Shown here piece by piece: positions 36,443-42,599 of a DNA stretch of 64,000 bases. Position 1 is the stretch's first letter. Each line of letters starts with the position of its first letter. Source of the DNA: an uncultured Bdellovibrionales bacterium (GTDB taxonomy: Bacteria; Bdellovibrionota_C; UBA2361; SZUA-149; CAYOZL01). The position numbers and the translations under genes are program-made. The notes under the pieces were generated by a model. That model had not been told where the DNA came from, did no database searches, and was given only the letters and a program-made list of their open reading frames with translations. The DNA lies in contig CAYOZL010000002.1 in the NCBI GenBank assembly GCA_964408435.1, positions 344 through 64,343 on the forward strand. The letters are read 5' to 3'.

Positions 36443-36754
36443 TTAATTACAATTCATATAAGCATCCCAAGGGCTGTATAAATAACCTACATATGGGAGT
36501 GAACCTACTAAGCCTGGTAGAAAGCTTCTTTGCACTGTAACTGAGCTCCAACTAGAGCAGTTTTGATTCTTGGTTGAAATTGGCTCACTAAACTCAACTA
36601 AACTTATAATTCCAATGTGATGCCAATTATCAAAATCTTGACCTACTATATCTATATTTGAAGTTGGTGAAGATGCTGCTTTTTTAAAATGCATTGTATG
36701 ACAAGCTGATAACAATGGAATAAGTAAAGCTAATGATAAAATTTTATATTTCAT
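36443..36754 (-). CDS. Bor/Iss-family-like small lipoprotein (divergent paralogue)
   Basis: Lipobox LLSAC. The C-terminal half (FLPGLVGSLPYVGYLYSPWDAYMNC) parallels the Bor C-terminus of the adjacent gene. Confidence 0.5.
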   Translation of the reverse strand: MKYKILSLALLIPLLSACHTMHFKKAASSPTSNIDIVGQDFDNWHHIGIISLVEFSEPISTKNQNCSSWSSVTVQRSFLPGLVGSLPYVGYLYSPWDAYMNCN

Positions 36755-36781
36755 TTTAATTCTCCTATATTTTTCACTAAT

Positions 36782-37072
36782 CTATCTACACCAAACTCGA
36801 TAAGAGCGTGGGGAATATATACCTAATGTAATGGCACCTAATAACCCATCTATAAAAGTTGTTTGGGCTTGAAATTGTTTCGGTGTTGCTCCACCACAAT
36901 GATTAGCTAAAACAACATCAACTGATTCTGGAGTTAATCCCCATAAGAAAAAGTCAGTACTTTCTGAAACATCAGCATTAGAACTAACTCTTTGACCACC
37001 ATCTGGTCTTACAGTTACATTCGCACAAGAAGGCAACAGAAAGCTTAGACATAAAAATAAAATTATTCTCAT
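36782..37072 (-). CDS. bor: Bor/Iss family lipoprotein (phage lambda Bor-like)
   Basis: HCGGATPKQFQAQTTFIDGLLGAITLGIYSPRSYRVWC closely matches the conserved Bor core CGGAENVVKTETQQTFVNGLLGFITLGIYTP...C. The protein is ~96 aa and is a lipoprotein. Confidence 0.75.
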   Translation of the reverse strand: MRIILFLCLSFLLPSCANVTVRPDGGQRVSSNADVSESTDFFLWGLTPESVDVVLANHCGGATPKQFQAQTTFIDGLLGAITLGIYSPRSYRVWCR

Positions 37073-37290
37073 ATAGACCTCATTAATTAATAAATTAATA
37101 GATTATTAACATATGATATTATTTTAGACTAAGAGTTTATCTTGGTCTAAACAACTAATATATCTATCAATTTATATGCTTGGGTTGAATTAAGGGTTTC
37201 ATCTTTCATAATCAGTCCAGAATATAAATGTTTATAGCAAAATTTTTATTAAGAACGATTAAGTTTTTTTAATTTGACGATGAATATATT

Positions 37291-37755
37291 ATGGACAACA
37301 AGGAATCAGGTTTCACTCTTATAGAACTTTTAACTACAGTTGCTATCATTGGGATTTTAGCATCGATAGCAATACCTGAATATAATCAATATAAATCAAA
37401 AGCTTATAACGCTGTAGCATCGAGTGCTGCTAAGACTTTTTTTACTGCAGCAATTGCTAGAAGAACTGATAATGATTTTGACATACACGAATGCGCAACT
37501 CTTAACGCAGGAGATCATGATGTGCGTTGTGGTAACTTTGAAGGATTTGTAGATGATGGTGTGATAATGTGTGAATTGGTTAGTGAAGGTGAAGGGGATG
37601 GCGGGACGATAGGAAATATTGTTGCTGGTTGCGCTCATCTAAAAGGGAATAAGGCATATTCATACTCACTATTCGATCTATCAAGTCGAGATTTTGGATT
37701 ATTAATATGTGACTGTGATGATGATTTTTGTGACGGTGGTGACATTCTTTGTTAG
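37291..37755 (+). CDS. type IV pilin / pseudopilin (prepilin N-methylation motif) with a Cys/Asp-rich C-terminus
   Basis: SGFTLIELLTTVAIIGILASIAIPEY is the canonical class III signal and N-terminal helix. The C-terminus is LLICDCDDDFCDGGDILC. Confidence 0.8.
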   Translation: MDNKESGFTLIELLTTVAIIGILASIAIPEYNQYKSKAYNAVASSAAKTFFTAAIARRTDNDFDIHECATLNAGDHDVRCGNFEGFVDDGVIMCELVSEGEGDGGTIGNIVAGCAHLKGNKAYSYSLFDLSSRDFGLLICDCDDDFCDGGDILC

Positions 37756-37805: not shown

Positions 37806-37848
37806 TGGTGATACTTAGACTTGAACTAAGGACCTCGGAATTATGAGT
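37806..37848. repeat. 43-bp direct repeat (distal att-like copy of the tRNA 3' end)
   Basis: tggtgatacttagacttgaactaaggacctcggaattatgagt is identical to 42234..42276, which is the 3' 43 nt of the tRNA gene. Confidence 0.85.
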
Positions 37849-38104
37849 GGAATCTTTTTGAATTTTGTACACTCTTAATAACTTGTATATACCTAGCAAG
37901 TATTTATACTTCTTGAATTTCTCAATTTAATCAAATCTAAAGGTATTTCTTGGTTTCATAGAGTATTTGAGGGATTTCTTGCCCCCGGCATGCCCCAGAA
38001 TTGGGAAAGTTGCTGGAACAAATAGTGAGGCGTTGTTTGTAATAGGGGAATTTGGTCTTTTAAAGTTAAGTAAATATGCATTGACTGAAAAAACTCTATT
38101 AATT

Positions 38105-39403
38105 TTATTTTCTTAATTTCTTTTTTATACAAGTTGGGCACCATCCACCATTACGAATGCTAATTGGAGATGCTTTCCATTTATGCTTGAATTCACATTG
38201 CCATTCTAGCTTTGTTTTGGTGCCTAAATATTCTTTTGATAAACAGATACCTTTTCTCATTTTTGCAATTTCCTGCATACCCTCAATTGAATATAGTTTT
38301 TCACCAAAGCATATAGGACACCACATTCCTAAAATTACGGCTCTAGGATATGCTTTAAATTTGTGTTGTTTTGAACATGTGAAACTAATTTTACATGTAC
38401 TTAGAACCGCTGTTTTGTGTATGCACTCACCTCTATGTGACTTAGCGATTTTTTTCATCTGTTCAAGCGAGTATTTTCTAAGTTCAATATGTGCACACTT
38501 AGCGCACCAAGCTCCTTCTAGAATATTACTACCTCTAATTTCCCATTGGTGACCTTTAGAGCACTCAAAAAGTAATTTATGGAAATTATTTACATATTTT
38601 TCAGATAAGCATTTTCCTCCTTCTAATTCAGCGATAGTTTTGAAGTTTTCTATCGATAAGGATCTAGTTGGATTGCAAGATGGACACCATGAACCTTTTT
38701 TTATGTTAGCTGGCGTAGAAAGCCATTTGTGCCCAAGTTCACATTCCCACTCTAAGTGTGTTACAGCATTAAGATAGTTATTAGAAAGACATCTACCACC
38801 TTTAGATTTAGCAATTTCTTGCATTTCTTCTATGGTTAAAGGTCTTGAATTGGAACATAAGTAACACCAGGAACCGCTCTTTACTGAACCTGGATTGGCG
38901 TACCATCGATGTCCATTTGAACATTCCCACTCTAGCTTAGTATTGGCATTTTTATATACGGTAGAAAGACATCTACCACCTTTAGATTCAGCAATTTCTT
39001 GCATTTCTTCTATGCCTAAAGGTCTTGCACTGGAACATAAGCGACACCAACTTCCTTTTTTTACTGAATGAGCAGTGGCAAACCATTGATGTCCTTTTGA
39101 ACATTCCCACTTTAGCTTAAGATTGACATTTTTATATACTTTAGAAAGACATTTGCCTCCTCTGGATTTAGCAATTTCTTGCATTTTTTCTAATGACAAA
39201 GGTCTTGCTCGAGAACAAAGAAGGCACCATCTTCCTCTCTCTACTTGTGGTGGAAGAGCATGCCATCGATGTCCTTTGCTGCACTCCCATTCTAATTTAG
39301 TTGAAGTATTTATATATTCTTTTGAGATGCATTTCCCACCTCTGGATTCCGCAATTTTTTGCATGTCCTCGATTTTGAGTTTGCGATATTTGCGTTTAGC
39401 CAT
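38105..39403 (-). CDS. multi-zinc-ribbon repeat protein (7 tandem 60-aa C-C-H-C-C modules), paralogue A
   Basis: Repeats follow the pattern IEEMQEIAxSxGGKCLSxxYxNxxTKLEWECSxGHxWxAxPxxVxxGxWCxxC. The likely true start is the ATG at 39401-39403 (MAKRKYRKL), preceded by GAGG. The ORF track used an upstream TTG. Confidence 0.7.
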   Translation of the reverse strand: MAKRKYRKLKIEDMQKIAESRGGKCISKEYINTSTKLEWECSKGHRWHALPPQVERGRWCLLCSRARPLSLEKMQEIAKSRGGKCLSKVYKNVNLKLKWECSKGHQWFATAHSVKKGSWCRLCSSARPLGIEEMQEIAESKGGRCLSTVYKNANTKLEWECSNGHRWYANPGSVKSGSWCYLCSNSRPLTIEEMQEIAKSKGGRCLSNNYLNAVTHLEWECELGHKWLSTPANIKKGSWCPSCNPTRSLSIENFKTIAELEGGKCLSEKYVNNFHKLLFECSKGHQWEIRGSNILEGAWCAKCAHIELRKYSLEQMKKIAKSHRGECIHKTAVLSTCKISFTCSKQHKFKAYPRAVILGMWCPICFGEKLYSIEGMQEIAKMRKGICLSKEYLGTKTKLEWQCEFKHKWKASPISIRNGGWCPTCIKKKLRK

Positions 39404-39650
39404 ATCAAACCTCAATTAAAACATTAAATCAGTCAAAGCATAAACATTAATCCTAATGTTTATGCTCGTGAAAATTAAATTCTACCCGATAAATTTCAGT
39501 ATTTGTAAGTAGTATGAAAAGAACTTCTAATAGCTTAATATATCACAGTGTTTTGGCAAAAACTAGACGTGAATAAGTTAAGATTGTTATTAATAAGATT
39601 TTTTAAAATTTAAGGAGGCTTGCCAAATATTTAATAACCTTTAAAGTTTT

Positions 39651-40706
39651 TTATAAATCTTGTTCTTTCCCTTGGTAGAGTTTTCGTAGGGAATCTAAGT
39701 TTAATTTGCTATCTGTTGGTAACTCATTAAACGCTCTAACAGCTTGTTCTCGAACAGTTTTATCAGGGCAATTAAAAACAGACATAAGCACGGGTGCTAA
39801 TATGGCAGTTGCTCTGCTGACACTTCTATCTAGTTCAAGACCAAGCTCTACCCCGCCATTTGAGAAGGCTTCGATTAGATCGGTAATTGTTTTGAAACTA
39901 AGAGTAGTGTCTTCAAAATCAACTTCTTCTAGCTCTTGATCTATTAAGTTTAGAATGCCATCAAATGCAAAACCGATTACTTCAATTGCAGAGAGCTCTT
40001 TAGTTGAGGTAAGGAAAAGTTTTTTTCCTCTTCCAGCTGGTGCTGACCAACGTTCTAGCCTAGTACTGTTACTCCGTGTTCTTTTTATTTTTCCAAGTGA
40101 TTTTCTAAGTGCTGCTCCAAGCTCGTGAGCAGTAAGATTCTTTTCAATGACCTCACTTGCATATCTTTCCATTTCCTTCTCAGTTGGAAATTGAGCAATC
40201 CTATAGGCCATCGTCAACGGAATTTTACTTTCATCAATAAGGTGAAGTATATTTTTGGGTAGTTTCAATAAACGAACAGTTTTCTTTATTAAATCGATAC
40301 TGTAGGTTGGTAAACTTTCGTGAAGTTGTCTTGCTCCCCAACCTTTTTCAGTCATTACAGCCTGAAAGGATTCTGCACGTTCTGAGGCTAGAAGATCTTT
40401 CTTAGCGCCGTCTTCAACAAGCTGATCCATGATAATATCCACTCTACTCATGGTTACATCACTGACAATGCTTGGAGCTTTTTCCCAGCCAAGATGCTTC
40501 ATCGCTCTTAGTCTTATTTCGCCAGAGATTAAAATGAATCTGTCTCCATTTGGTCTGACTTTAATTCTTCTTTTCAGGTCGTTTTTTTCAATACTTCTTG
40601 CTCTTTTTTCAATGTCTTTCTCTGTGATGGTTTTTCGAGGTTGATTTGGATCGAAATCAATCAAAGCTATATCAATATCCATCATTTGATCTGGTTTTTT
40701 GGCCAC
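39651..40706 (-). CDS. ParB/Srx-like nuclease-domain protein with HTH (orphan, no ParA)
   Basis: IDIALIDFDPNQPRK...IKVRPNGDRFILISGEIRLRAMKHLG matches the ParB N-terminal box including GxxRxxA. An HTH follows, and the C-terminal region is helical. Confidence 0.7.
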   Translation of the reverse strand: MAKKPDQMMDIDIALIDFDPNQPRKTITEKDIEKRARSIEKNDLKRRIKVRPNGDRFILISGEIRLRAMKHLGWEKAPSIVSDVTMSRVDIIMDQLVEDGAKKDLLASERAESFQAVMTEKGWGARQLHESLPTYSIDLIKKTVRLLKLPKNILHLIDESKIPLTMAYRIAQFPTEKEMERYASEVIEKNLTAHELGAALRKSLGKIKRTRSNSTRLERWSAPAGRGKKLFLTSTKELSAIEVIGFAFDGILNLIDQELEEVDFEDTTLSFKTITDLIEAFSNGGVELGLELDRSVSRATAILAPVLMSVFNCPDKTVREQAVRAFNELPTDSKLNLDSLRKLYQGKEQDL

Positions 40707-41067
40707 GGTAAATCCCTTATAAAAACGCTATTGAGATTGTTAGTTATTTGGCAATAAATCGCCCCAAATAATTATAATAATTATCTAAGACAACTTATTA
40801 GTTTTATGGCTGATATTTAAATTATAAAGAACGAATAGATTGAGTTATATTTTCATAGAGTAGATTTTACTATAAAATAGTGATAAATTGCAAATCAGCT
40901 GAAATAATACCTAGAATTACTTATAAGTCGTTAAAATATAAGATTTAGAAATTATAACAGTAAGTTCTTTTATAATTATATAATTGTAGAACCTTATTTA
41001 ATGCGTGAAAAGAGATTTGAATTACTTTTCACGCTTTGACTGGTTATTGTTTTTTTTGAGGTTTGTC

Positions 41068-42174
41068 ATGGCAAGACTTAGATATACGATTAAGGATATG
41101 CAAAAAATTGCTACATCAAGAGGTGGTAAATGCTTATCAGATAGCTACGCAGGTCTAAAAACCAAACTTGAGTGGCAATGCGCAGATGGGCATCGTTGGA
41201 ATTCTACACCTCATAGCATTATTTATACTAAGTCATGGTGTTTAGCTTGTGCAGGAGTTAAGCCACTAACATTAGACGAGATGCAAAAGATTGCTAAATC
41301 TAGAGGTGGTAAGTGCTTATCTAAGGAGTATTTTAACAATAGAACTAAACTCGAATGGCAATGCGCAAATGGACATCGCTGGTTTGCTGCTCCTAAAGAT
41401 GTAAAAAAGGGAACATGGTGTTTTTATTGTTCCAGCACTAAATTAACAATTGAAGAAATGCAAGAAATTGCTAAATCAAGAGGTGGTAAGTGTTTGTCTA
41501 GAGATTACTTAGGAATTTTTACTAAACTAGAATGGGAATGCGCAAAAAAGCATCGTTGGCAAGCCCAACCTAATGACATTAGAAAGGGAGGATGGTGTCC
41601 TTATTGTAGTGGAAGACTATCTAGGACAATCGAAGAGTTTCAACTAATTGCTGAACTCGAAGGTGGCAAGTGCTTATCTACGGAATATGTAAAAGATTTG
41701 ATTCCTCTACGCTTTAGATGCTCGGAAGGTCATGAATGGGAAGCAATAGGAAGTAATATAAAAAAGGGAACATGGTGTCCTGTATGCTCTAATCGAAAGT
41801 ACTCAATTAGGGAGATGCAAGAGATAGCGGAGTCTCAAAACGGTAAGTGCTTGTCTAAAGGCGTCATTACTAGAAAAACAAGAGTGGAATTTCAGTGTAA
41901 GGAAAAACATGTTTTTAGAGCACTTCCTAGAGCTATTGAGTTCGGTATGTGGTGTCCTAAATGTTTTGGAGACAAGCTGTATACCATTGAAGGAATGAAA
42001 GAAATTGCAAAAATGAGAGGTGGAGACTGTTTATCTAAGGAATATTTAGGTGTTACGAAAAAGCTTAAATGGACTTGTGAATTTTCCCATACTTGGACTG
42101 CACTCCCTAATCCTATTAGAGATGGAGGATGGTGTCCTGTTTGTTTTGAGATTGCAAGAAAGAAACAGATTTAA
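41068..42174 (+). CDS. multi-zinc-ribbon repeat protein (6 tandem 60-aa modules), paralogue B
   Basis: It has the same repeat architecture as paralogue A and a homologous C-terminus (GGWCPxC). The preferred start is ATG 41068 (MARLRYTIKDMQKIA), preceded by GAGG. The GTG at 41005 used by the ORF track is less likely. Confidence 0.7.
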   Translation: MARLRYTIKDMQKIATSRGGKCLSDSYAGLKTKLEWQCADGHRWNSTPHSIIYTKSWCLACAGVKPLTLDEMQKIAKSRGGKCLSKEYFNNRTKLEWQCANGHRWFAAPKDVKKGTWCFYCSSTKLTIEEMQEIAKSRGGKCLSRDYLGIFTKLEWECAKKHRWQAQPNDIRKGGWCPYCSGRLSRTIEEFQLIAELEGGKCLSTEYVKDLIPLRFRCSEGHEWEAIGSNIKKGTWCPVCSNRKYSIREMQEIAESQNGKCLSKGVITRKTRVEFQCKEKHVFRALPRAIEFGMWCPKCFGDKLYTIEGMKEIAKMRGGDCLSKEYLGVTKKLKWTCEFSHTWTALPNPIRDGGWCPVCFEIARKKQI

Positions 42175-42233
42175 AAAAGGTTTGTCAGTCAAAGTAATTA
42201 CATAATTACTCAATTAAATCGATAAGCAAAAAA

Positions 42234-42307
42234 TGGTGATACTTAGACTTGAACTAAGGACCTCGGAATTATGAGTTCCGCGCTCTAACCAGCTGAGCTA
42301 TATCACC
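42234..42307 (-). tRNA. tRNA with CAU anticodon (elongator Met, or Ile2-lysidine type)
   Basis: The minus-strand sequence GGTGATATAGCTCAGCTGGTTAGAGCGCGGAACTCATAATTCCGAGGTCCTTAGTTCAAGTCTAAGTATCACCA folds into a cloverleaf. The acceptor stem is 7 bp, the anticodon stem-loop is CGGAA/CTCATAA/TTCCG, and the T-loop is TTCAAGT. The G1:C72 pair argues against an initiator. Confidence 0.85.
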
Positions 42308-42467
42308 CTAGGATTTGCTTTGTTTTTGAGGTGAGAATCTACTTATTCTTTCCAATTTTAGCAATACTAATAGCATTAAATACATATAAATAAGCTTGTA
42401 TTATATATCTTGAGTCAAGAGTAAGTAGGTATGATTTGTTTGTTTTTCAGGTTTTTGAAGCTAATAA

Positions 42468-42497: not shown

Positions 42498-42599
42498 ATT
42501 TTATTATTAGCGTAAACCTCGGAAAAATCGTTCTAAACGATTTTGAGAATGAAGAAAAACAAACACATCATACCTACGTTTTATTTATCTATCAAGAAT

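What the first reader, a model, noticed from the sequence alone, without database searches (positions are those of the whole stretch)
38105..42174. Inverted pair of paralogous multi-zinc-ribbon repeat proteins bracketing a ParB-like gene: a candidate uncharacterised three-gene module
The two outer genes (about 432 and 368 aa) consist almost entirely of six or seven tandem 60-aa modules. Each module has a fixed Cys...Cys-x2-His...Cys-x2-Cys spacing of the form GGKC...WxCxxGHxW...GxWCPxC, which is treble-clef or zinc-ribbon-like. To my recollection it is reminiscent of the DUF4379-type 'probable zinc-ribbon' tandem repeats. The two genes face outward from a central orphan ParB-like gene. Such a highly iterated nucleic-acid- or protein-binding scaffold, duplicated in inverted orientation around a ParB-type NTPase/nuclease-fold protein, inside a horizontally acquired islet, is a plausible novel defence, anti-defence or partition-like system. 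A role as inverted-repeat substrates for DNA inversion is also possible.
Basis: partly seen in the sequence, partly recalled or inferred. Interest (0 to 1): 0.8.

Follow-up and report, generated by a model that had tools for sequence, protein, structure and literature searches.

The report
ParB-like gene with zinc-finger-array partners
A 4.4-kb islet inserted at a tRNA-Met gene carries an unusual ParB-type DNA-clamp gene flanked by two genes made only of repeated zinc-finger DNA-binding modules, and the same rare combination in one unrelated metagenome contig suggests an undescribed DNA-targeting module whose function is unknown.

Summary

Three things are new.
- The trio fills a 4.4-kb islet bounded by exact 43-nt repeats of the tRNA-Met 3' part. 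There is no integrase.
- The ParB C-terminal domain has only three other hits among 1.84 billion representative proteins. The one long contig among them (L026) carries two such ParBs interleaved with four arrays.
- All 12 copies of TTGACTGR in the window and L026 bracket the six array genes as inward-facing inverted pairs.

In 25 loci of generic arrays, a ParB-like gene lies near the array in only one.

My best guess, at modest confidence, is a mobile-element DNA-targeting and regulatory module that works like KorB/KorA or BisD/BisC. Function is untested.

The parts
37806..37848 (-). Distal att-like repeat: an exact copy of the 3' 43 nt of tRNA-Met (tRNA positions 32-74). This is the left boundary of the islet.
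   Evidence: (D6), 81, 108: 43/43 identical to 42234-42276; only two copies in 64 kb; 0 expected by chance
38078..38088 (+). [not shown]
38105..39403 (-). [not shown]
39429..39439 (-). [not shown]
39437..39466 (.). [not shown]
   Evidence: read from the sequence
39651..40706 (-). Orphan ParB-family gene, 351 aa. Residues 1-203 form the ParB NTPase fold plus HTH. Residues ~205-351 form a private C-terminal domain.
40707..41067 (.). [not shown]
41033..41043 (+). [not shown]
41068..42174 (+). [not shown]
42185..42195 (-). [not shown]
42234..42307 (-). Intact tRNA-Met (CAT). Its 3' 43 nt (42234-42276) is the proximal att-like repeat and the right boundary of the islet.
   Evidence: (Rfam tRNA, 72 bits)

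Best explanation
The three genes form one functional unit: a rare, horizontally transferred DNA-binding module. It sits on a small islet at tRNA-Met that has no integrase and so cannot move by itself.

Shown:
- The central protein is a ParB/Noc/KorB-type NTP-switch fold plus HTH. It lacks a ParA-binding motif and has a private C-terminal domain.
- This ParB subfamily, arrays carrying an AELEGG-type module, and an 11-nt motif (GCNTTGACTGR) in inverted pairs around every array gene all occur together in two very divergent loci.

Inferred:
- The arrays are long-site, sequence-specific DNA binders. They act as address proteins, with hypervariable positions on a fixed zinc scaffold.
- The ParB-like protein is the effector. 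It would load on DNA, then clamp and slide or spread, and silence or otherwise regulate the bound region.
- The arrays would recruit the clamp or lock it in place, perhaps through its private, faintly HEAT-like C-terminal domain. This is the logic of KorB with KorA or TrbA, and of BisD with BisC.
- The bracket motifs would be the module's own cis sites, for autoregulation or insulation of the array genes.

The external target is unknown. It could be a competing mobile element, phage genes or host genes.
For: Domain identity:
- Pfam DUF4379 and CapR score above their cut-offs.
- PHROGs matches cover only the repeat region of phage 'HNH endonuclease' and 'endonuclease' families (1e-50).
- tblastn hits fall in the DNA-binding parts of T5-like homing endonucleases.
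- CapR-type domains bind DNA in experiments, and binding depends on the cysteines (PMC8096241; bioRxiv 10.64898/2026.02.23.707548). They also serve as repeated targeting modules of homing endonucleases (PMC10448857; PMC12350094).
- The AlphaFold model shows well-folded modules (pLDDT about 90) joined by poorly defined linkers, with pTM 0.35: beads on a string.
- A conserved scaffold carries hypervariable positions.

ParB:
- The fold matches ParB, Noc and KorB (Foldseek E 3e-12 to 1e-9).
- The GxxR motif is kept as GEIR.
- Orphan ParB-like proteins on mobile elements act as transcription regulators together with partner proteins (PMC11790492, PMC13584720, PMC12409273, PMC12704722).

Linkage:
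- The C-terminal domain has 3 other hits among 1.84e9 representatives.
- L026 reads array-ParB-array-array-ParB-array.
- ELEGG modules are reciprocal best matches between the two loci and are absent from the other 119 top homologues.
- All 4 TTGACTGR sites in the window and all 8 in L026 bracket the six array genes. In L026, 0 of 200 shuffles reach 8 sites.
- Generic arrays lack both the ParB neighbour and the bracket motif.
Against: - Only two loci are informative. The third member, L027, is a 1.1-kb contig with no array or motif in the 307 nt after the ParB gene.
- DNA binding is taken from related domains. The ligand pattern here (C...C-x3-H...C-x2-C) differs from CapR's CxxC...CxC.
- No target site, interaction or nucleotide binding was shown.
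- ParB box II reads GE(I/M)R instead of GERR, and box III also deviates, so the switch may behave differently.
- The C-terminal domain model has low confidence (pLDDT 43-82), and the HEAT hits are below threshold.
- The margins that set ELEGG modules apart are small, 4-13 bits.
- The bracket motif is not a parS-like palindrome and could serve another purpose.
Confidence: 0.4

Rival explanations
1. The array genes are themselves mobile or invertible cassettes. On this reading the inverted GCNTTGACTGR pairs are terminal inverted repeats or recombination sites, used to copy, move or flip each array gene, and the ParB-like protein is an accessory factor.
For: - Every array gene is individually bracketed by inward-facing copies of the motif.
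- Copy number differs between loci: 2 in the window, 4 in L026.
- The last motif base (G or A) matches between the two ends of five of the six genes.
- The arrays derive from the targeting domains of selfish homing endonucleases.
Against: - No recombinase, transposase or nuclease domain lies in either locus.
- I saw no target-site duplication when reading the flanks.
- No motif copy or cassette occurs elsewhere in the 64-kb window.
- The same-strain metagenome contig has the same orientation.
- An 11-nt repeat is short for a recombination site.
Confidence: 0.15
2. It is an anti-defence or defence cargo of the CapR/CasPR kind. The arrays would silence specific genes, either host immunity genes or genes of a competing phage or satellite, simply by binding DNA and blocking RNA polymerase. 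The ParB-like protein would only regulate their expression.
For: - CapR represses the phage capsid operon, and CasPRs silence cas genes by binding inside coding sequences (PMC8096241; bioRxiv 10.64898/2026.02.23.707548).
- Generic arrays lie in variable or mobile contexts, for example next to Cas9-Cas1-Cas2 in L021 and among prophage-like genes in L023.
- The islet is horizontally acquired.
Against: - CasPRs are defined by CapR plus AP2, and no AP2 domain is present.
- PADLOC finds nothing.
- No cas genes or other defence genes were noted near the islet.
- This reading does not explain the strict co-inheritance with a private ParB subfamily or the bracket motifs.
Confidence: 0.2
3. There is no joint function. 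The islet would be the decayed remnant of a larger integrative element. The ParB gene would be a leftover partition gene and the arrays leftover homing-endonuclease genes that lost their nuclease domains.
For: - The islet has att-like repeats but no integrase.
- There is no ParA gene.
- Generic arrays are scattered with no conserved partner.
Against: - All three ORFs are intact.
- The same combination, with the same private ParB C-terminal domain, the ELEGG module and the bracket motif, recurs in a locus of 52% GC against 31-35% here, with proteins about 40% identical. Sequence that had merely decayed would not have kept this conservation.
Confidence: 0.08
4. It is a ParA-independent maintenance or partition device for a mobile element. 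The ParB-like protein would bind a centromere-like site, and the arrays would tether the element to specific chromosomal sequences.
For: - Membership of the ParB family.
- One generic-array locus (L003) sits 4 kb from a ParA-ParB pair.
Against: - The module is integrated in the chromosome.
- There is no ParA gene and no ParA-binding motif.
- No parS-like palindrome is shared between the two loci.
- There are no hits on plasmids for the ParB C-terminal domain.
Confidence: 0.07

Closest known systems
CapR (capsid repressor of the Vibrio cholerae phage satellite PLE) and the CapR/DUF723/DUF4379 targeting domains of T5orf172 and EDxHD/Vsr homing endonucleases
   Same: The domain family is the same (Pfam PF21817 and PF14311 above their cut-offs; PHROGs endonuclease families). 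It is a zinc-dependent small fold used in tandem copies as a modular DNA binder. CapR itself is a nuclease-free, domesticated form.
   Different: There are 6-7 modules here, against 1 in CapR and up to about 6 in the endonucleases. There is no nuclease domain. The ligand pattern is C-x3-H...C-x2-C plus an upstream Cys, instead of CxxC...CxC. The genes are chromosomal and linked to a ParB-family gene.
CasPR anti-CRISPR repressors (CapR + AP2)
   Same: They are free-standing CapR-domain proteins carried by mobile elements, and they act purely by sequence-specific DNA binding.
   Different: There is no AP2 domain, there are far more CapR-type modules, no acr locus lies nearby, and the host is not a Bacillota prophage.
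KorB with KorA or TrbA (plasmid RK2), and BisD with BisC (ICEclc)
   Same: Each is an orphan ParB-family NTP-switch protein on a mobile element. Each has a lineage-specific extra domain and works with a separate partner protein to regulate transcription at a distance. The N-terminal part and HTH of this ParB superpose on KorB (8qa9, E 1e-9).
   Different: The partners here are zinc-finger arrays, which are unrelated to KorA, TrbA or BisC. The C-terminal domain is unrelated. No parS-like palindrome was identified, and nothing has been shown experimentally.
Non-autonomous integrated elements (CIME-like islets flanked by att sites but lacking an integrase)
   Same: Exact direct repeats of the tRNA 3' part run from the anticodon loop to the 3' end, GC content is slightly raised, and there is no integrase. 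This comparison rests on my own knowledge of such elements.
   Different: The islet is very small (4.4 kb), and its whole coding content is the three-gene module.

Membership tests
CapR / DUF4379 zinc-finger DNA-binding domain (Pfam PF21817 / PF14311) | Profile match above the curated cut-off | tested here: met
   DUF4379 scores 60.8 and 67.0 bits (cut-off 24.5); CapR scores 49.0 and 31.5 bits (cut-off 24.2)
CapR / DUF4379 zinc-finger DNA-binding domain (Pfam PF21817 / PF14311) | Conserved metal ligands in every module | tested here: met
   C17, C33, H37, C52 and C55 are invariant. The pattern differs from CapR's CxxC...CxC. Zinc binding itself was not tested.
CapR / DUF4379 zinc-finger DNA-binding domain (Pfam PF21817 / PF14311) | Sequence-specific DNA binding | not testable with these tools
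   Known for CapR and CasPR only (PMC8096241; bioRxiv 10.64898/2026.02.23.707548)
Homing endonucleases with CapR-like arrays (T5orf172/GIY-YIG, EDxHD/Vsr, HNH) | A nuclease domain attached to the array | tested here: not met
   [not shown]
CasPR anti-CRISPRs | CapR domain together with an AP2 domain | tested here: not met
   no AP2 hit
ParB/Spo0J family (NTPase fold + HTH) | ParB_N and HTH_ParB domains with a ParB-like fold | tested here: met
   (TIGR00180, 69.9 bits against 58.45)
ParB/Spo0J family (NTPase fold + HTH) | Nucleotide-binding motifs (box I QPR, box II GERRxRA / GxxR, box III ENxQR) | tested here: inconclusive
   QPR and GxxR are kept (GEIR), but the first Arg of GERR is I or M in the three members whose N-terminal part is known, and box III deviates (EDGAKK or DNMER)
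Canonical ParABS partition system | An adjacent ParA gene, the N-terminal ParA-binding motif LG-R/K-GL, and the ParB C-terminal dimerisation domain (PF23552) | tested here: not met
   there is no ParA gene in the islet, the motif is absent from the N-terminus, and PF23552 is absent although most homologues carry it
Canonical ParABS partition system | A parS-like 14-16-bp palindrome near the gene | tested here: inconclusive
   palindromes exist next to the bracket motifs, but they differ from gene to gene. The 10-nt inverted repeat around the ParB gene is not significant (36 of 500 shuffles reach it).
tRNA-integrated genomic island / integrative element | Direct repeats derived from the 3' part of the target tRNA | tested here: met
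   43 nt exact, tRNA positions 32-74
tRNA-integrated genomic island / integrative element | An integrase or recombinase gene inside the element | tested here: not met
   [not shown]
Known anti-phage defence systems (PADLOC-DB 2.0) | A match to any component model | tested here: not met
   0 families for all three proteins
KorB/KorA-type or BisD/BisC-type clamp-plus-partner regulators | Physical interaction of the ParB-like clamp with a partner protein, and transcriptional control | not testable with these tools
   Only the fold similarity to KorB and the conserved gene linkage are available

The most novel reading that the evidence does not exclude
This would be a new type of ParB-switch system. 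Polydactyl CapR-type zinc-finger arrays, a modular and potentially reprogrammable DNA-recognition scaffold, would act as dedicated sequence-specific loaders or locks for a ParB-family clamp. The array genes would be organised as cassettes delimited by conserved inverted 11-nt sites. If so, bacteria would have a TALE- or zinc-finger-like addressable silencing device that has not been described.
Probability: 0.22. Interest if true: 0.85.

Novelty: new variant of a known kind. Interest (0 to 1): 0.62.

Why it matters
- Orphan ParB-type NTP switches on mobile elements are emerging as long-range gene regulators that work with partner proteins. This module would add a new kind of partner, and the conserved gene linkage makes the idea directly testable.
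- Nuclease-free arrays of 6-12 CapR/DUF4379 modules are widespread (more than 3,300 proteins found) and uncharacterised. A fixed zinc scaffold with hypervariable positions suggests a modular DNA-recognition code, which is of interest for biology and for engineering.
- The bracket motif gives a concrete cis element to test.
- The limits are that the ParB-linked form is very rare (two informative loci) and nothing about its function has been shown.

Tried and rejected
- **PADLOC:** no hit for any of the three proteins.
- **Inversion between the two genes:** rejected. The longest exact inverted match is 26 nt and the genes are 65.7% identical in DNA.
- **Integrase:** none found among the ORFs within the att repeats. 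The 256-nt left non-coding stretch was not examined for gene remnants.
- **Genome scan with a protein alignment:** failed for lack of a conserved stretch. The single-protein scan gave 14 loci and did not find the source genome.
- **More loci with this ParB subfamily:** the JGI metagenome scan returned only generic ParBs. IMG/VR and PLSDB returned nothing.
- **Profile search with the six ELEGG modules:** it returned only 55-100-aa fragments and was uninformative.
- **Bracket motif as a sigma-70 -35 box:** I found no convincing -10 hexamer at 16-18 nt by reading the sequences, and the idea does not explain the downstream inverted copies.
- **Bracket motif as a parS-like palindrome:** it is palindromic only upstream of L026 array a1.
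- **10-nt inverted repeat TTGCCAAATA around the ParB gene:** not significant (36 of 500 shuffles) and absent from L026.
- **Empty-site comparison:** the only related contigs, L024 and L025, are the same strain and also carry the islet.
- **attP in viral contigs:** none.
- **Rfam:** only the tRNA passes its threshold.
- **Source organism:** the cluster look-up gave no names.
Full report
**1. Observation**

The region holds three intact ORFs.
- A ParB-like gene lies at 39651-40706 on the minus strand (351 aa).

**2. Domain identity**

Pfam places both proteins in DUF4379 (PF14311, 'probable treble clef zinc finger') and CapR (PF21817), above the curated cut-offs.

PHROGs matches are strong (1e-43 to 1e-50). 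They fall only in the repeat portion of two phage 'endonuclease' families. tblastn against phage records hits the non-catalytic part of T5-like GIY-YIG and HNH homing endonucleases at under 31% identity.

The literature describes this domain in four settings.
- CapR is a DNA-binding repressor of the PLE phage satellite. It derives from the targeting domain of T5orf172 homing endonucleases, and mutating its cysteines abolishes DNA binding (PMC8096241).
- CapR, DUF723 and DUF4379-type zinc fingers occur as repeated, recombining DNA-binding modules of homing endonucleases (PMC10448857).
- Three to five CapR-like domains precede an EDxHD/Vsr nuclease in homing endonucleases carried by phage group II introns (PMC12350094).
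- CapR+AP2 proteins, the CasPRs, silence cas genes by binding inside coding sequences (bioRxiv 10.64898/2026.02.23.707548).

Across 781 modules from 120 homologues the scaffold is nearly invariant, while positions 8, 11, 12, 20, 21, 25, 26, 42, 44, 45, 48, 50 and 54 are hypervariable. Related arrays have 6-12 modules, most often 9.

**3. The ParB-like protein**

Residues 1-203 match ParB_N and HTH_ParB and pass TIGR00180. They align to Spo0J, ParB and Noc sequences in the PDB. They are modelled with pLDDT mostly above 90 and superpose on ParB, Noc and KorB structures.

The protein lacks three features of partition ParBs.
- It has no N-terminal LG-R/K-GL ParA-binding motif. That motif is described in bioRxiv 10.1101/2025.10.10.680097.
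- No ParA gene lies in the islet.
- It has no canonical C-terminal domain (PF23552), which most of its homologues carry.

Box I (QPR) and the GxxR motif are kept. However, GERR reads GE(I/M)R in the three subfamily members whose N-terminal part is known, and box III also deviates. Nucleotide use is therefore uncertain.

Residues ~205-351 form a private domain: a beta-hairpin followed by helices, with a faint, sub-threshold HEAT-like tail.

**4. The islet**

A tRNA-Met (CAT) lies at 42234-42307 on the minus strand. Its 3' 43 nt, covering tRNA positions 32-74 from the anticodon loop to the 3' end, recurs exactly at 37806-37848. These are the only two copies in the window. From my own knowledge, this is the classical signature of integrase-mediated insertion into a tRNA gene.

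Two contigs of the same strain from a JGI metagenome (99.8-100% identical) also carry it, so no empty site was available for comparison.

**5. Is the ParB-array linkage real?**

For arrays in general the answer is no. More than 3,300 homologues exist in very diverse bacteria and archaea and on plasmids. In 25 distinct loci, only one has a ParB-like gene nearby, and that one is an ordinary ParA-ParB pair 4 kb away. A Pfam census of 145 neighbouring ORFs shows no conserved partner. It finds only a scatter of transposases, integrases, PIN and HTH genes.

For this ParB subfamily the answer is yes. A full-sensitivity search with the C-terminal domain against 1.84 billion representatives found only three other proteins.
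- One is a likely spurious match: a weak hit (E 5.5e-09) to a short stretch of a 1,626-aa highly repetitive protein.
- One lies on a 1.1-kb contig (L027) and is uninformative.
- The third, P0245, lies on a 35.8-kb contig (L026). There the gene order is array (426 aa), ParB (361 aa), array (423 aa), array (371 aa), ParB (360 aa), array (429 aa).

L026 has about 52% GC. Its ParBs are 39-40% identical to the window's over the full length, C-terminal domain included. All six arrays in the two loci carry one module with an AE(L/M)E(G/Q)G signature just before the C-terminal cap module or modules. None of the other 119 top homologues has that signature. Profiles built from one locus rank the other locus's ELEGG modules first among about 1,070 modules, although the margins are only 4-13 bits.

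**6. A conserved cis element**

The 8-mer TTGACTGR occurs 4 times in the 64-kb window and 8 times in L026. All 12 copies sit 10-57 nt outside the ends of the six array ORFs, as inward-facing inverted pairs. In L026, 0 of 200 shuffles reach 8 copies.

In the window the count itself is not above chance, but the placement is. I estimate the chance of that placement at about 1e-11, which is my own rough inference. The extended consensus is GC-N-TTGACTG-R.

The 22 array genes checked in other loci (including duplicate contigs and some plasmid and viral loci not checked) lack the motif in this arrangement. That it is conserved between a 31-35% GC locus and a 52% GC locus indicates selection.

The motif is not a consistent palindrome and lacks a convincing -10 partner. 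What binds it is unknown.

**7. Interpretation**

The shared, co-diverged features are the private ParB domain, the ELEGG module and the bracket motif. Together they argue that the three genes work as one unit.

The known systems that come closest are ParB-family clamps on mobile elements that regulate transcription together with partner proteins.
- KorB works with KorA and with TrbA (PMC11790492, PMC13584720).
- BisD carries a unique extra domain and works with BisC (PMC12409273).

I therefore favour, at confidence 0.4, a DNA-targeting and regulatory module. In this model the arrays provide long-site specificity. The ParB-like protein is the NTP-switch effector that they recruit or lock in place. 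The bracket motifs are the module's own control sites.

Section 'rival explanations' lists the alternatives. They are mobile or invertible array cassettes, CapR/CasPR-style silencing with ParB as a mere regulator, a decayed remnant with no joint function, and a maintenance device that works without ParA.

**8. Novelty**

The component families are known. I found no description of their combination. DUF4379 appears in only 7 papers of the held library (5 were listed after merging duplicate versions), and none of the listed titles concerns ParB. PADLOC has no model for any of the three proteins.

I rate it a new variant of a known kind, namely an orphan ParB regulator with a partner. It is rare, and its function is untested.

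Noticed in passing
window 38078-38088, 39429-39439, 41033-41043, 42185-42195; L026 3948, 5325, 6895, 8267, 8481, 9685, 11332, 12699: An 11-nt motif, GCNTTGACTGR, brackets every ParB-linked array gene as an inward-facing inverted pair. It is conserved between two loci of very different GC content.
   Followed up: yes
window 40657-40667 (-): A fifth near-copy of the bracket motif (GCTTTGATTGA, one mismatch) lies inside the 5' coding region of the ParB gene, on the gene's own strand. It may be chance.
   Followed up: no
[not shown]
   Followed up: partly
window 42394-42466: This 73-nt segment, between the tRNA-Met and the metallophosphatase gene, is missing from the otherwise 99.98-100% identical metagenome contig L024. 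It contains one arm of a 24-nt inverted repeat (42425-42448 paired with 42554-42577). It is a strain-level indel.
   Followed up: partly
[not shown]
   Followed up: no
L021 5823-8110 and 9468-14781: In another metagenome contig, two tandem generic array genes (365 and 369 aa) lie 1.3 kb from a Cas2-Cas1-Cas9 locus. This is worth noting because CasPR proteins, which contain CapR domains, silence cas genes.
   Followed up: no
L014 9877-9892 and 12019-12034: A generic array gene in a Thermodesulfobacteriota genome assembled from a metagenome is bracketed by a different, perfect 16-nt inverted repeat (AAGCAAGACCTGACCC). Bracketing by inverted repeats may therefore not be unique to the ParB-linked subfamily.
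   Followed up: no
L026 5560-5585 and 9900-9925: Both ParB paralogues of L026 share an upstream motif (AATCGTCGTTTAC..GGTTTT). No clear counterpart lies upstream of the window's ParB gene.
   Followed up: no
window 36443-37755: Just outside the islet lie two adjacent Bor-like lipoprotein paralogues (one strong Pfam match, one weak) and a pilin-like gene with an N-terminal methylation motif and a Cys-rich C-terminus.
   Followed up: no
ParB residues ~300-330 (window ~39720-39810): The private C-terminal domain ends in a HEAT-like helical motif (LLS.L...D..VR.QA..A). Pfam HEAT hits in the homologue P0245 are below threshold (E 0.011).
   Followed up: partly
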